Counted from the first letter of the stretch, positions 1 to 9,542 are shown. The stretch is DNA of 20,405 nucleotides from an uncultured Thiotrichales bacterium (GCA_964593225.1 CAZQHJ010000026.1:1-20405); one strand, 5' to 3'. Numbers and translations are program-made. Notes: a model not told the origin generated them from the letters alone.

Positions 1-104
1 GAAAAGCTGGCTTAATCCGACATCCTAATTTATCTCATGGACAGACCACTAGGGGCTGTTGATGTTTCACATAGGTAGCCAAAAAAAGCTACATGCTAAT
101 GCCA

Positions 105-394
105 GGTAGTGGCTCAGTTTGAAATTTCTATGTTTCCATGCCCCGAATGGGGCTATGTACATTAGCCCGGGTTTGCGCGAAGCGTTACCCTGGGGAAGAG
201 GGAACCCTACGACACAACCCCAACGGGGTTGTGTCGGAAGACGTTGATAACGTTAGTGATACACAACCCCCTTGGGGTTGTTCCCACCCTCCCGCCAACC
301 CGGGGTTGCGCGAAGCGCTACCCCGGGCTTGTTATACGTAGCCCCTATCGGGGCAAAAAAATGCCAATCGAGGATTTCAAACTGAGCCACTACC
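105..394. mobile_element. MITE-like non-coding structured element, ~290 bp, bounded by perfect 21-bp terminal inverted repeats GGTAGTGGCTCAGTTTGAAAT (105-125) and its inverse (374-394)
   Basis: Read directly from the sequence: perfect 21-bp inverted repeats. Internal hairpins GCCCCGAATGGGGC (139-152) and GCCCCTATCGGGGC (341-354). 10-bp-stem hairpins ACACAACCCCaacGGGGTTGTGT (211-235) and ACACAACCCCcttGGGGTTGT (259-279). Two ~30-bp direct repeats CCCGGGtTTGCGCGAAGCGtTACCC (~166-195) and CCCGGGgTTGCGCGAAGCGcTACCCC (~299-328). No credible ORF. No clean target-site duplication found. Confidence 0.5.
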
Positions 395-715
395 AAATTC
401 TCCGACCAATTGCCACTTGGGATCGTCGTTTTTCTGGTTGTATAGGGAAAACGGCTGGCACGGGGCGCATCCGGCGAGGACCCTGAGCGTATTCGGATAA
501 AACTCCCGCGTCACTTCCCGGCTGGAAATGGTGGCCACGTCCCACCGTATGAAAGGCGCGTCATTGTTGGTTTCGAACGGGTGACGGCACGCCTCGTCCA
601 CATCGATCCCGCATGCTACCGGGAAACCCTCGACCTTGAACCCATGGGTCAAGCCCCCGACGCCGCAAAACAGATCGATGACGGATGCCTGCATTCTCCC
701 AGTCCTGTTGTTCAA
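377..715 (-). pseudogene. DNA cytosine-5 methyltransferase (Dcm-like) N-terminal remnant, truncated after motif IV at the MITE-like element boundary
   Basis: 112-aa ORF carrying C5-MTase motif I (DLFCGVGG, F-x-G-x-G-G AdoMet site) and motif IV (GCAPCQPFS, catalytic PCQ). The reading frame ends in ...DPKWQLVGEF|GSGSV*, where GSGSV* is encoded by the terminal inverted repeat itself. Nothing C5-MTase-like (ENV motif, target-recognition domain) continues in any frame at 1-104. Confidence 0.6.
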
Positions 716-8285: not shown

Positions 8286-9542
8286 ATGAATCGGACAACA
8301 CACGCCAATGCCCCGCCGGGCGAGAGAATCGACTCCCTGATGCGGTTCCTGTGGTGGTGCTCCGGGGCCGTCGTCTCCATGCTGAAAGACTACCCAACCG
8401 AATACAGCAAATATTTCGGGATAGGCGGCGCCATCTTCACCACCTGGTTGCTGGCGACCATCAGCGGCATCTATGCCTTCTACACCATGATTGGGAGTTA
8501 CTTTGTCGCGATTCCCATTGGCATCGTCTGGGGCTGGGTCATCTTCAATCTGGACCGGTTCATCACCTCCAGCATGAAAAAACCGGGCAACGAGATCGAC
8601 GAGGCCTTTTTCTCCGAACGCATCGGGGCCTTTCTCTCGGAATTCCTGCCGGCGATTCCCCGTATTCTGATTGCCGTGATCATCGGTTATTCCATCTCCA
8701 TTCCCCTGGAACTGCGGTTGTTCGAGTCCGAGGTGCTGGAACAGGTAAAAGAGATCGAAAAGATCGAGATGCAGCGGTACGTGGAGCGACTGCGCCAGGA
8801 ACGGGACAAGGTCATCTCTTCCCTCAAGTCCGAACGCGTAGCATTGAAACAGGAAGAAGACGAACTGCGCGAGGAATACGGACGCGGTCGGGAAGAAATC
8901 GCGCGCATGGAAGAACGCATCAAGGGACTTCGGCGGGAGTTGCAGGCCGATCTTGAAGAACACGCCTCGAAGATCACGGCGTTCCAGGCGGAAATAACCG
9001 GAACTGGCGGAACCGGACTGCCGGGCTATGGCAAAGTGGCGGGCCTCAAGGAGGATTTGATGAAAAAAACCGGCGATTGGTATCAGTCGAGCCAGGATCA
9101 AACCATGAAAAGGATCGAATCCATGGGTCAGCGGATTCTGGAGATCAACGGACGCCATAACCAATCCGCGCTCCGGCTCGATAGGCAGCTAACAGGTATC
9201 GAAACCGAGATCGAAAAAGCCAAGGAAGCGTTCGAGAAAGAGAAAGACAGGGTCCACGAAGAAGGCATGCGCCACGGGTTCCTGACCCAGGTCAAGGCGC
9301 TCTATCGGGTCTCGGCCCAGGAAGGCAACGAGGCCATCGAATGGGCGCACACCATCTTCGTGCTCCTGATCATTCTGGTGGAACTGGGTCCGATCATCGT
9401 CAAGCTGCTCTCGCCACGCGGACCTTACGATGCGCGGGTCGACCGTGAAAACAAGTTGGCGATGATCGGCATGGATAATGATGTGATTAAAGAACGTTCG
9501 ATAGCCATTCGAAATAGAAGAACCGGGAAGCACTTGACGTGA
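8286..9542 (+). CDS. DUF4407-like membrane protein: N-terminal multi-TM region, ~200-aa coiled coil, C-terminal TM helix
   Basis: N-terminal RFLWWCSGAV...YFGIGGAIFTT...NLDRFITSSMKK matches my recollection of the conserved DUF4407 (PF14362) N-terminus; this is unverified. ELRLFESEVLEQ...coiled coil. IFVLLIILVELGPIIVKLL C-terminal TM. Sits 10 bp after the flotillin stop. Confidence 0.6.
   Translation: MNRTTHANAPPGERIDSLMRFLWWCSGAVVSMLKDYPTEYSKYFGIGGAIFTTWLLATISGIYAFYTMIGSYFVAIPIGIVWGWVIFNLDRFITSSMKKPGNEIDEAFFSERIGAFLSEFLPAIPRILIAVIIGYSISIPLELRLFESEVLEQVKEIEKIEMQRYVERLRQERDKVISSLKSERVALKQEEDELREEYGRGREEIARMEERIKGLRRELQADLEEHASKITAFQAEITGTGGTGLPGYGKVAGLKEDLMKKTGDWYQSSQDQTMKRIESMGQRILEINGRHNQSALRLDRQLTGIETEIEKAKEAFEKEKDRVHEEGMRHGFLTQVKALYRVSAQEGNEAIEWAHTIFVLLIILVELGPIIVKLLSPRGPYDARVDRENKLAMIGMDNDVIKERSIAIRNRRTGKHLT

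What the first reader, a model, noticed from the sequence alone, without database searches (positions are those of the whole stretch)
105..715. Highly structured ~290-bp palindromic element truncating a dcm-like methyltransferase
The element has perfect 21-bp terminal inverted repeats and nested internal hairpins. These include two 10-bp-stem hairpins on an ACACAACCCC core and two GCCCC-N4-GGGGC hairpins. It also carries a pair of ~30-bp direct repeats. The C5-MTase ORF runs into the right inverted repeat, so its last five codons and stop are supplied by the inverted repeat, and no remainder of the gene exists beyond the left inverted repeat. The absence of a target-site duplication, together with loss of the 3' two-thirds of the MTase, fits recombination between two copies of the element, or insertion plus deletion. 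Alternatively the element could encode a structured small RNA.
Basis: partly seen in the sequence, partly recalled or inferred. Interest (0 to 1): 0.55.

Follow-up and report, generated by a model that had tools for sequence, protein, structure and literature searches.

The report
Miniature IS1-family transposon truncating methylase gene
A 290-bp non-coding mobile element sits where the last 70% of a DNA-methylase gene has been lost in a ciliate symbiont; it has the ends of a very widespread IS1-family transposon and an interior made of a hairpin-rich intergenic repeat, so it is an ordinary kind of genome parasite with an unusual nested make-up.

Summary
In detail: there are perfect 21-bp terminal inverted repeats (TIRs) at 105-125 and 374-394. 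The 290 bp between their outer ends fold far better than shuffled sequence. A C5-methyltransferase ORF ends inside the right repeat.

The 21-mer is the invariant end of a huge IS1-family transposon group found in more than 10 phyla. That group includes autonomous copies of 1.9-4.6 kb carrying a transposase and passenger genes, and miniature copies of 63-490 bp. Of 57 paired elements, 26 have perfect 8-bp target duplications. The window copy has none (4/8).

The interior (137-357) is a second, unrelated repeat. It consists of two outward-facing two-hairpin units plus inner hairpins. The same architecture occurs in five other loci without IS1 ends. Two of those units pass Rfam's threshold for the Acido-Lenti-1 RNA motif; the window units do not.

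The methylase keeps residues 1-100 (motifs I and IV) and breaks 16 codons before motif VI.

The host is Candidatus Kentrum eta.

Best reading: a non-autonomous IS1-type element carrying a palindromic repeat, followed by transposase-mediated adjacent deletion or inter-copy recombination. This is a new member of a known kind and of moderate-to-low interest. Copy number in the host is inferred, not shown.

The parts
1..104 (.). Left flank: lower-GC (47%) non-coding DNA with no methylase remnant. All public contigs end here.
   Evidence: Composition. tblastn with the C-terminal part of the Kentrum sp. LFY methylase finds nothing in this stretch. Contig ends are shown.
105..125 (+). Left terminal inverted repeat, GGTAGTGGCTCAGTTTGAAAT. 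It is identical to the consensus end of the IS1-family transposon group.
   Evidence: Conservation is at least 0.88 at all 21 positions over 189 ends and drops to 0.49 or less at position 22.
126..136 (.). 11-nt spacer between the left TIR and the palindromic repeat.
   Evidence: Boundary taken from the covariance-model (CM) match.
137..194 (-). Two-hairpin unit 1 of the Acido-Lenti-1-like repeat: hairpin B (166-194), linker (154-165), hairpin A (140-153).
   Evidence: Model R1, built without the window, scores 44.2 bits, E = 1.3e-10, over its full length. The Rfam family RF01687 scores only 11.6 bits here.
210..236 (.). Inner hairpin C, CGACACAACCCC-AAC-GGGGTTGTGTCG, with a 12-bp stem.
   Evidence: DNA fold -14.7 kcal/mol, z = -6.6. 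AACCC..GGGTT inner hairpins sit at the same place in L134, L135, L136 and L103.
241..253 (.). Central mini-hairpin ACGTT-GAT-AACGT at the symmetry centre.
263..281 (.). Inner hairpin C', ACAACCCC-CTT-GGGGTTGT, with an 8-bp stem.
299..357 (+). Two-hairpin unit 2: hairpin B' (299-327, apex inverted relative to the family), linker (328-340), hairpin A' (341-354).
   Evidence: Model R1 scores 44.6 bits, E = 1e-10. The apex reads GTTGCGCGAAGCGCTAC instead of the family's GTAGCGCTTCGCGCAAC.
358..373 (.). 16-nt spacer between the palindromic repeat and the right TIR.
374..394 (-). Right terminal inverted repeat. It supplies codons GSGSV and the stop codon to the methylase remnant.
377..694 (-). Remnant of a C5 cytosine DNA methyltransferase, 105 aa. 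Residues 1-100 are genuine (motifs I and IV). The break falls after ..KWQLVGEF, 16 codons before motif VI (ENV).
   Evidence: Pfam PF00145, 54.8 bits. It aligns to M.HaeIII residues 3-93 of 324. The Kentrum sp. LFY homologue continues GEF-SRLIREIRPDVVTMENV. UniRef names it a C-5 cytosine-specific DNA methylase of Candidatus Kentrum eta.

Best explanation
Window 105-394 is a non-autonomous miniature transposable element (MITE) of an IS1-family transposon group.

Its two perfect 21-bp ends are the sites recognised by that group's DDE transposase, supplied in trans. The group's normal product is an insertion flanked by an 8-bp target duplication.

Its interior is not transposon-derived. It is a complete copy (137-357) of a separate palindromic intergenic repeat built as hairpin H1, hairpin B, inner hairpins, hairpin B', hairpin H1'. 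That repeat is related to the Rfam motif Acido-Lenti-1. It was either captured between two IS1 ends or inserted into a TIR-only mini-MITE of about 67 bp.

The element landed in or next to a C5-methyltransferase gene of Candidatus Kentrum eta. A later event removed the 3' 70% of the gene together with one copy of the target duplication. That event was either a transposase-mediated adjacent deletion (intramolecular transposition, classic for IS1) or recombination between two copies.

Shown: the identity of the ends, the family's mobility elsewhere, the identity of the interior, and the methylase breakpoint.

Inferred: mobilisation in this host, copy number above 1, the order of nesting, and the type of deletion.
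For: Ends:
- The exact 21-mer occurs in 5 viral contigs and in more than 117 stretches of species-representative genomes from Acidobacteriota, Verrucomicrobiota, Chloroflexota, Actinomycetota, Bacteroidota, Alpha- and Gammaproteobacteria, Nitrospinota and others.
- Paired ends delimit elements of 63 bp to 4.6 kb. Of 57 pairs, 26 have perfect and 8 have 7/8 8-bp direct flanks.
- Cultured examples are the Acidiphilium multivorum plasmid (flanks AAGCCGAG) and the Mesorhizobium loti plasmid (flanks CGCTGGTG).

Transposase:
- Long copies carry a 277-308 aa transposase whose stop codon lies inside the TIR (..ISN*).
- It hits Pfam DDE_Tnp_IS1 at 28.6 bits (threshold 24.1) and NCBIfam IS1 at E = 6e-14.
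- At least 8000 protein clusters match, and NCBI and JGI name them 'IS1 family transposase'.
- The TIR tip GGTAGTGGCTCA matches the E. coli IS1A end GGTAATGACTCC at 9/12 positions. The IS1A sequence was verified at 100% identity.

Interior:
- A model built only from units in L133-L136 finds exactly two full-length matches in the 20-kb window: 299-357(+) and 137-194(-), E about 1e-10.
- The same model finds nothing in 0.5 Mb of other TIR-bearing loci.
- The same outward-facing pair architecture is seen in six elements at five loci: L133, L134 (two elements), L135, L136 and L103.
- The L134 units pass the RF01687 threshold (46 and 40.7 bits against 37).

Methylase break.

More than one context in the host: Logan contigs (k = 31) from three runs all end exactly 30 nt into the right end.

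No coding capacity: a six-frame translation finds no significant homologue (one weak hit, E = 1.3e-4) among 5.8e9 protein clusters.
Against: - The window copy has no target duplication (4/8), so transposition into this site is not directly documented.
- No second copy of this exact element (TIR plus this interior) was found in IMG/VR, JGI metagenomes or the fetched loci.
- I could not show an IS1-family transposase in Kentrum.
- Only 104 nt of left flank exist, so a displaced methylase remainder further left cannot be excluded.
- SPAdes assemblies read through the 290 bp. Other copies, if any, may therefore share only the ends.
Confidence: 0.75

Rival explanations
1. The element is primarily a gene for a structured small RNA, or a pair of divergent small RNAs of the Acido-Lenti-1 type. 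On this reading the inverted repeats are just its basal stem.
For: The fold is very stable. The two-hairpin unit shows compensatory changes, 8 of 15 pairs and 36 cells. Rfam files related units as the sRNA family RF01687. Weinberg et al. 2010 rated that motif as probably an RNA.
Against: - The basal 21 bp are the ends of transposons that carry entirely different interiors.
- There is no sigma-70-like promoter or intrinsic terminator in 1-900 apart from one outside the element.
- The units face outward on opposite strands.
- Of 216 pair cells, 98% are Watson-Crick, none is G-U and no pair varies on one side only. That is what DNA palindromes give and is unusual for RNA helices.
- The units are dispersed multi-copy intergenic repeats.
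- The window units score only 11.6 bits on RF01687.
Confidence: 0.1
2. The palindromic (Acido-Lenti-1-like) repeat is the active agent. It inserted into a pre-existing 67-bp TIR-only relic of an IS1 element. The methylase damage dates from the older IS1 event, and the 290-bp unit as a whole is not mobile.
For: TIR-only mini-elements of 63-83 bp exist in other genomes. The window element minus its palindrome leaves about 67-69 bp. The palindromic family is found elsewhere without IS1 ends.
Against: The k=31 contig break lies exactly at the outer edge of the TIR, not at the edge of the palindrome. That argues that the TIR-bounded unit, or at least TIR plus 10 nt, is what is repeated. Both TIRs are still perfect. 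No mobility mechanism or transposase for the palindromic family was seen.
Confidence: 0.12
3. Assembly artefact: the palindrome caused a chimeric or folded-back join, so the truncation is not real.
For: All contigs end within about 105 nt of the element. For NODE_257, 106 + 21 = 127 nt, a common SPAdes k.
Against: The methylase-TIR junction is reproduced in independent SPAdes contigs and in Logan contigs from three sequencing runs. The interior is identical in the window and in ENA NODE_257.
Confidence: 0.03

Closest known systems
IS1 family insertion sequences (IS1A of E. coli; single-ORF IS1 relatives with passenger genes) and MITEs derived from them
   Same: - The transposase is a DDE type with the IS1 signature.
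- The TIR begins GGTAnTGnCTC, as does the IS1A end.
- The transposase stop codon lies inside one inverted repeat.
- Target duplications are 8 bp. IS1 itself makes 8-9 bp; that figure is my knowledge of ISfinder and Siguier et al. 2015.
- IS1 is classically associated with adjacent deletions (Reif & Saedler 1975; Turlan & Chandler 1995; from memory).
   Different: - The transposase scores below NCBIfam's IS1 cut-off (52 against 100 bits) and is a single ORF of 277-308 aa.
- The 21-nt TIR is invariant across phyla.
- The window copy is non-autonomous, lacks a target duplication, and has a foreign palindromic interior.
Acido-Lenti-1 RNA motif (Rfam RF01687; Weinberg et al. 2010, PMC2864571)
   Same: The architecture is a long hairpin, a linker of about 12 nt starting GGCU.., and a small variable hairpin. 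Units in L134 that are homologous to the window units pass the Rfam threshold. There is covariation in both stems.
   Different: - The window units score 11.6 bits against a threshold of 37.
- The host is a gammaproteobacterium, not Acidobacteria or Lentisphaerae.
- Here the units come as outward-facing inverted pairs with inner hairpins, forming a palindromic element of about 160-290 bp.
- No G-U pairs are seen.
REP / REPIN / BIME-type intergenic palindromic repeats
   Same: They are dispersed intergenic hairpin units arranged as inverted pairs between ordinary genes, including between convergent genes in L136. Structure is conserved while sequence varies.
   Different: No RAYT-type Y1 transposase was seen. 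The GTAG tetranucleotide lies inside hairpin B rather than at its foot. The units are larger, with two hairpins each.
Structured bacterial MITEs such as Correia (Neisseria) and ERIC elements
   Same: They are short TIR-bounded non-coding elements that fold into long hairpins and disrupt or end genes.
   Different: The ends and target duplications differ. Effects on transcripts are documented for those elements and were not tested here.

Membership tests
MITE derived from the IS1 family | Terminal inverted repeats identical or near-identical to those of autonomous elements encoding an IS1-family transposase | tested here: met
   Both ends equal the 21-nt consensus. The same ends bound elements of 1.9-4.6 kb that carry the transposase. 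The transposase hits PF03400 and NF033558. The TIR tip matches IS1A at 9/12.
MITE derived from the IS1 family | Target-site duplication of the family's length (8 bp) flanking the copy | tested here: not met
   The window flanks are TAATGCCA and AAATTCTC, 4/8 identical. In the family, 26/57 pairs are perfect and 8/57 are 7/8.
MITE derived from the IS1 family | Small size and no transposase or other coding capacity | tested here: met
   The element is 290 bp. The six-frame translation has no significant homologue (one weak hit, E = 1.3e-4). No gene is called in it in public assemblies.
MITE derived from the IS1 family | Several copies in the host genome | tested here: inconclusive
   Logan k=31 contigs from 3 runs end exactly 30 nt into the element, which implies at least 2 contexts for its end. 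No second copy could be retrieved.
MITE derived from the IS1 family | A cognate autonomous transposase in the same genome or community | not testable with these tools
   Kentrum assemblies cannot be searched by DNA here. None of the 120 best transposase hits listed was named Kentrum.
Acido-Lenti-1 RNA (RF01687) | Score at or above Rfam's gathering threshold (37 bits) | tested here: not met
   11.6 bits, E = 2.8-4.3, at 139-194(-). Homologous units in L134 score 46 and 40.7 bits.
Acido-Lenti-1 RNA (RF01687) | Two hairpins joined by a conserved GGCU.. linker, with covariation | tested here: met
   Model R1, built without the window, scores 44.6 and 44.2 bits with E about 1e-10. 98% of cells are paired and 36 cells change on both sides.
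REP/REPIN mobilised by RAYT | Inverted doublets of a hairpin unit with a GTAG head, and a RAYT gene in the genome | tested here: inconclusive
   Inverted doublets are present. GTAG lies inside the stem of hairpin B. No Y1 transposase was found in the five flanking regions. Whole genomes were not searchable.
Functional C5 DNA methyltransferase (Dcm-like) | The full set of motifs I, IV, VI, VIII, the target-recognition domain, and IX-X | tested here: not met
   Only motifs I and IV are present. The alignment stops at M.HaeIII residue 93 of 324. The break falls 16 codons before ENV.

The most novel reading that the evidence does not exclude
The orphan 'Acido-Lenti-1 RNA' motif is not an sRNA gene. 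It is the end module of a cross-phylum family of palindromic DNA repeats, made of outward-facing unit pairs with inner hairpins, and its pairing is maintained at the DNA level (no G-U in 216 cells). Such repeats can ride inside IS1-type miniature transposons, whose 21-nt ends are invariant across more than 10 phyla. That would give a REP-like repeat a vehicle for horizontal spread into hosts such as the Kentrophoros symbiont.
Probability: 0.35. Interest if true: 0.5.

Novelty: new member of a known kind. Interest (0 to 1): 0.3.

Why it matters
For the genome at hand, it explains a pseudogenised restriction-modification methylase and a recurrent assembly break in Candidatus Kentrum eta. It also points to active or recent IS1-type mobile DNA in an obligate ciliate symbiont whose assemblies are notably fragmented.

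More generally, it documents three things:
- One IS1-family lineage keeps an identical 21-nt end in more than 10 phyla and spawns many unrelated MITEs.
- MITE interiors can be complete copies of another repeat family.
- An Rfam 'sRNA' family may really be part of a palindromic DNA repeat.

None of this changes how transposons are thought to work.

Tried and rejected
- Rfam at gathering thresholds on the window found nothing. The permissive hits (BTH_s19, D12-methyl, mir-976, enterovirus CRE) were far below threshold and were rejected.
- The ACACAACCCC hairpin pattern in IMG/VR gave one unrelated intergenic hairpin.
- TIR plus GCCCC-hairpin pattern in JGI metagenomes gave 0 hits.
- The hairpin B pattern in IMG/VR gave one chance hit inside a gene. 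In plasmids it gave only chance-level hits.
- Exact look-up of the 67-aa ORF inside the element found nothing on record.
- A six-frame protein search for other copies found nothing significant, only one weak hit (E = 1.3e-4).
- I looked for the interior or the left flank among 125 loci and found only self-matches.
- I looked for a methylase 3' remnant in 1-104 and found none.
- I asked whether the methylase remnant belongs to a family of small proteins. It does not: the short hits are fragments that run on into motif VI.
- I checked whether the left-flank octamer recurs as a displaced target duplication. The 7/8 match at 359 is at chance level.
- I asked whether the sequence left after removing the palindrome resembles TIR-only mini-MITEs. 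There is no clear similarity.
- The Kentron genome paper does not mention mobile elements.

Full report
**1. The observation**

Window 105-125 (GGTAGTGGCTCAGTTTGAAAT) and 374-394 are perfectly complementary over 21 nt. No shuffle of the window contains the 21-mer even with 3 mismatches.

The 290 bp fold as one long imperfect hairpin: -172.9 kcal/mol against -100 +/- 5 for shuffles, z = -13.6. The other strand gives z = -12.3. The interior without the repeats still gives z = -9.9. The two halves are about 70% identical as a palindrome.

The local hairpins exist as described, with one correction. The left ACACAACCCC hairpin has a 12-bp stem and the right one an 8-bp stem, not 10 bp each. The 29-nt pair 166-194 / 299-327 is 26/29 identical in direct orientation.

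The minus-strand ORF 377..694 is a C5-methyltransferase N-terminus (PF00145, 54.8 bits). Its last five codons (GSGSV) and its stop lie in the right repeat.

**2. Host and methylase**

The 105-aa product is on record as a 'C-5 cytosine-specific DNA methylase' of Candidatus Kentrum eta, the sulfur-oxidising ectosymbiont of Kentrophoros ciliates (PMC6593406).

It aligns to residues 3-93 of the 324-aa M.HaeIII, so motifs I and IV only. In the homologue of Kentrum sp. LFY, itself frameshifted and in another context, the DNA after ..VGEF continues SRLIREIRPDVVTMENV... In the window, VGEF is followed directly by the repeat. The break is therefore 16 codons before motif VI, and about 70% of the gene is missing.

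The C-terminal part has no match in window 1-104. The many 80-170-aa database relatives are contig-end fragments or pseudogenes that run on into ENV. They are not a small-protein family.

**3. What the inverted repeats are**

The exact 21-mer occurs in five IMG/VR contigs. These come from Acidobacteriota, Verrucomicrobiota, Chloroflexota, Actinomycetota, Bacteroidota, Alpha- and Gammaproteobacteria, Nitrospinota, Nitrospira, Zixibacteria, Oligoflexia, Binatia and others.

Pairing plus-oriented and minus-oriented ends gives 57 elements of 63 bp to 4.6 kb. Of these, 26 are flanked by a perfect 8-bp direct repeat and 8 more by a 7/8 repeat. Over 189 ends, every one of the 21 positions is at least 88% conserved, and conservation collapses at position 22.

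Elements of 1.9-4.6 kb carry a 277-308-aa protein next to one end, with its stop codon inside the repeat (..ISN*). They also carry variable passenger genes. That protein hits Pfam DDE_Tnp_IS1 above threshold and NCBIfam 'IS1 family transposase' at E = 6e-14, though below that model's cut-off. At least 8000 90%-identity clusters match the profile, and NCBI and JGI name them 'IS1 family transposase'.

Cultured examples lie on plasmids of Acidiphilium multivorum (flanks AAGCCGAG) and Mesorhizobium loti (flanks CGCTGGTG).

The tip of the repeat (GGTAGTGGCTCA) matches the E. coli IS1A end (GGTAATGACTCC) at 9/12 positions. The IS1A sequence I used is 100% identical to annotated IS1A copies. In IS1A, too, the transposase stop lies in the inverted repeat.

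The repeats are therefore the ends of a known, extremely widespread IS1-family lineage. The window element is a miniature, non-coding derivative of it. A six-frame search of 5.8e9 protein clusters found no significant homologue, only one weak hit.

**4. What the interior is**

Nothing inside 126-373 resembles any other element with these ends. A pattern taken from hairpin B (GGGKTTGCGCGAAGCGYTACCC) retrieved four unrelated metagenome contigs. All four show the same 31-33-nt unit AGCCCGGGGTTGCGCGAAGCGCTACCCCGGG and the same overall plan. That plan is: small outer hairpin, linker of about 12 nt, hairpin B, usually inner AACCC..GGGTT hairpins (absent in L133), hairpin B inverted, linker, small outer hairpin. 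None has IS1 ends. All lie between ordinary genes with no transposase nearby.

Rfam places the 'hairpin B + linker + small hairpin' unit of L134 in Acido-Lenti-1 RNA (RF01687) at 46 and 40.7 bits, against a threshold of 37. L136 reaches 23.4 bits and the window only 11.6.

I aligned ten units from L133-L136, excluding the window. RNAalifold gave 15 pairs, 7 of them with compensatory changes. A covariance model from that alignment finds exactly two full-length matches in the 20-kb window: 299-357(+) at 44.6 bits (E = 1e-10) and 137-194(-) at 44.2 bits (E = 1.3e-10). It finds nothing in 0.5 Mb of other TIR-bearing loci. It finds one further outward-facing pair in a Spartobacteria genome, L103.

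So 137-357 is a complete member of a second repeat family. In the relatives these are inverted copies of each other. In the window, the apex of the right one is flipped (GTTGCGCGAAGCGCTAC for GTAGCGCTTCGCGCAAC). That is what a small inversion between the 7-bp stem arms would give (the inversion mechanism is inference).

Across 15 matches (14 full two-hairpin units plus one hairpin-B-only match), 98% of 216 pair cells are Watson-Crick and 36 show changes on both sides. None is G-U and no pair varies on one side only. This suggests a palindrome kept at the DNA level rather than an RNA helix. The alignment is model-fitted and small, so this is suggestive only.

**5. RNA gene?**

No Rfam family reaches threshold in the window. 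There is no sigma-70-like promoter, and no terminator-like site inside the element. Together with the outward-facing arrangement and the absence of G-U pairs, I rate the sRNA reading at about 0.1.

**6. Copy number and assembly**

Every public contig carrying this locus ends at or near the element. Three Logan contigs from different sequencing runs stop exactly 30 nt into its right end. Logan graphs use k = 31 and keep each 31-mer once. The first 31-mer lying wholly inside the element must therefore have more than one predecessor. This means the right end (TIR plus 10 specific nt) occurs next to at least two different flanks in each sample. The element's own two ends share only 21 nt, so they cannot cause this. 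That is indirect evidence for more than one copy.

SPAdes contigs read through the element and stop 104-106 nt to its left, for unknown reasons.

**7. Mechanism (best reading, 0.75)**

An IS1-family transposase supplied in trans recognises the two perfect 21-bp ends and inserts the unit with an 8-bp duplication. Here the duplication is absent (4/8) and the gene's 3' 70% is gone. The present left junction is therefore secondary.

The two simplest routes are intramolecular transposition giving an adjacent deletion, which is classic for IS1 (my knowledge: Reif & Saedler 1975; Turlan & Chandler 1995), and recombination between two copies. They cannot be told apart without the rest of the genome.

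How the palindromic repeat came to lie between IS1 ends is also open. It could be capture between two ends, or insertion into a TIR-only mini-element. Such mini-elements of 63-83 bp exist, and the window element minus its palindrome leaves about 67-69 bp.

**8. Verdict**

This is a real feature, correctly spotted. It is an IS1-family MITE with a nested Acido-Lenti-1-like palindromic repeat, ending a decayed methylase gene. It is a new member of a known kind.

The parts worth a specialist's glance are:
- the cross-phylum invariance of the 21-nt end;
- the nesting of two repeat families;
- the hint that RF01687 is a DNA repeat rather than an sRNA.

Noticed in passing
L134 4265-4691 (-): Three tandem Y RNA-like (YrlA, RF02553) matches at 60.9, 57.7 and 37.9 bits (threshold 69). 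They lie next to Acido-Lenti-1 units in a soil metagenome contig.
   Followed up: no
L006 8115-8702: An ORF in a viral contig begins with C5-methylase motif I (KPLAIDLFCG), continues as unrelated sequence, and runs into an IS1-type end at 8682. It also ends ..GSGSV*. This is a second methylase fragment abutting this repeat.
   Followed up: no
L005, L008, L009, L027, L042, L075, L130, L131 (long elements): The IS1-family transposons with this end carry diverse passenger genes. These include MazF/PemK-like and RelE-like toxins, a HicA-like protein, a Fic-like protein, ImmA/HTH regulators and a histone-H1-like protein.
   Followed up: partly
L014 2744-2927, L035 2818-3001, L058 6829-7012, L070 162-370, L074 963-1146, L113 5966-6189: A second structured MITE subfamily of 184-224 bp has the same ends, a long GC-rich stem and a conserved asymmetric core (..GCGCACATCCATGTGC..GGTGGCGACGTCCTGTCGCCAC..). 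It occurs in either orientation in Halioglobus and another gammaproteobacterial MAG. Fold z-scores are -7 to -14, and there is no Rfam match.
   Followed up: partly
L067 406-468 and L080 7712-7782: Mini-elements of 63 and 71 bp consist of two ends plus the last codons of the transposase gene (KRGPYKK-ISN*). Both have perfect 8-bp duplications, so two ends with only 21-29 nt between them appear sufficient for transposition.
   Followed up: partly
L129 4343-5433: The Kentrum sp. LFY homologue of the methylase is split by a frameshift into ORFs of 118 and 234 aa. It sits next to a HATPase_c gene. This is independent decay of the same gene in a sister symbiont.
   Followed up: partly
window 1-125 and the end of ENA NODE_257: Independent SPAdes contigs end 104 and 106 nt left of the element. 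For NODE_257, 106 + 21 = 127 nt, a usual maximal k. This may mean a graph branch exactly at the inner edge of the left repeat.
   Followed up: no
L054 1910-2178: Two miniature elements of 119 and 142 bp lie 8 bp apart. They share the octamer CACTTGCT between them and have CACTTACT outside, which looks like a tandem or nested insertion.
   Followed up: no
L045, L062, L081, L097, L032, L092, L078 interiors: Several other MITEs with these ends contain the common soil-bacterial palindromic motif GTCATCCTGAG...GAAGGATC. This suggests that the interiors of this MITE group are often built from host REP-like repeats.
   Followed up: no
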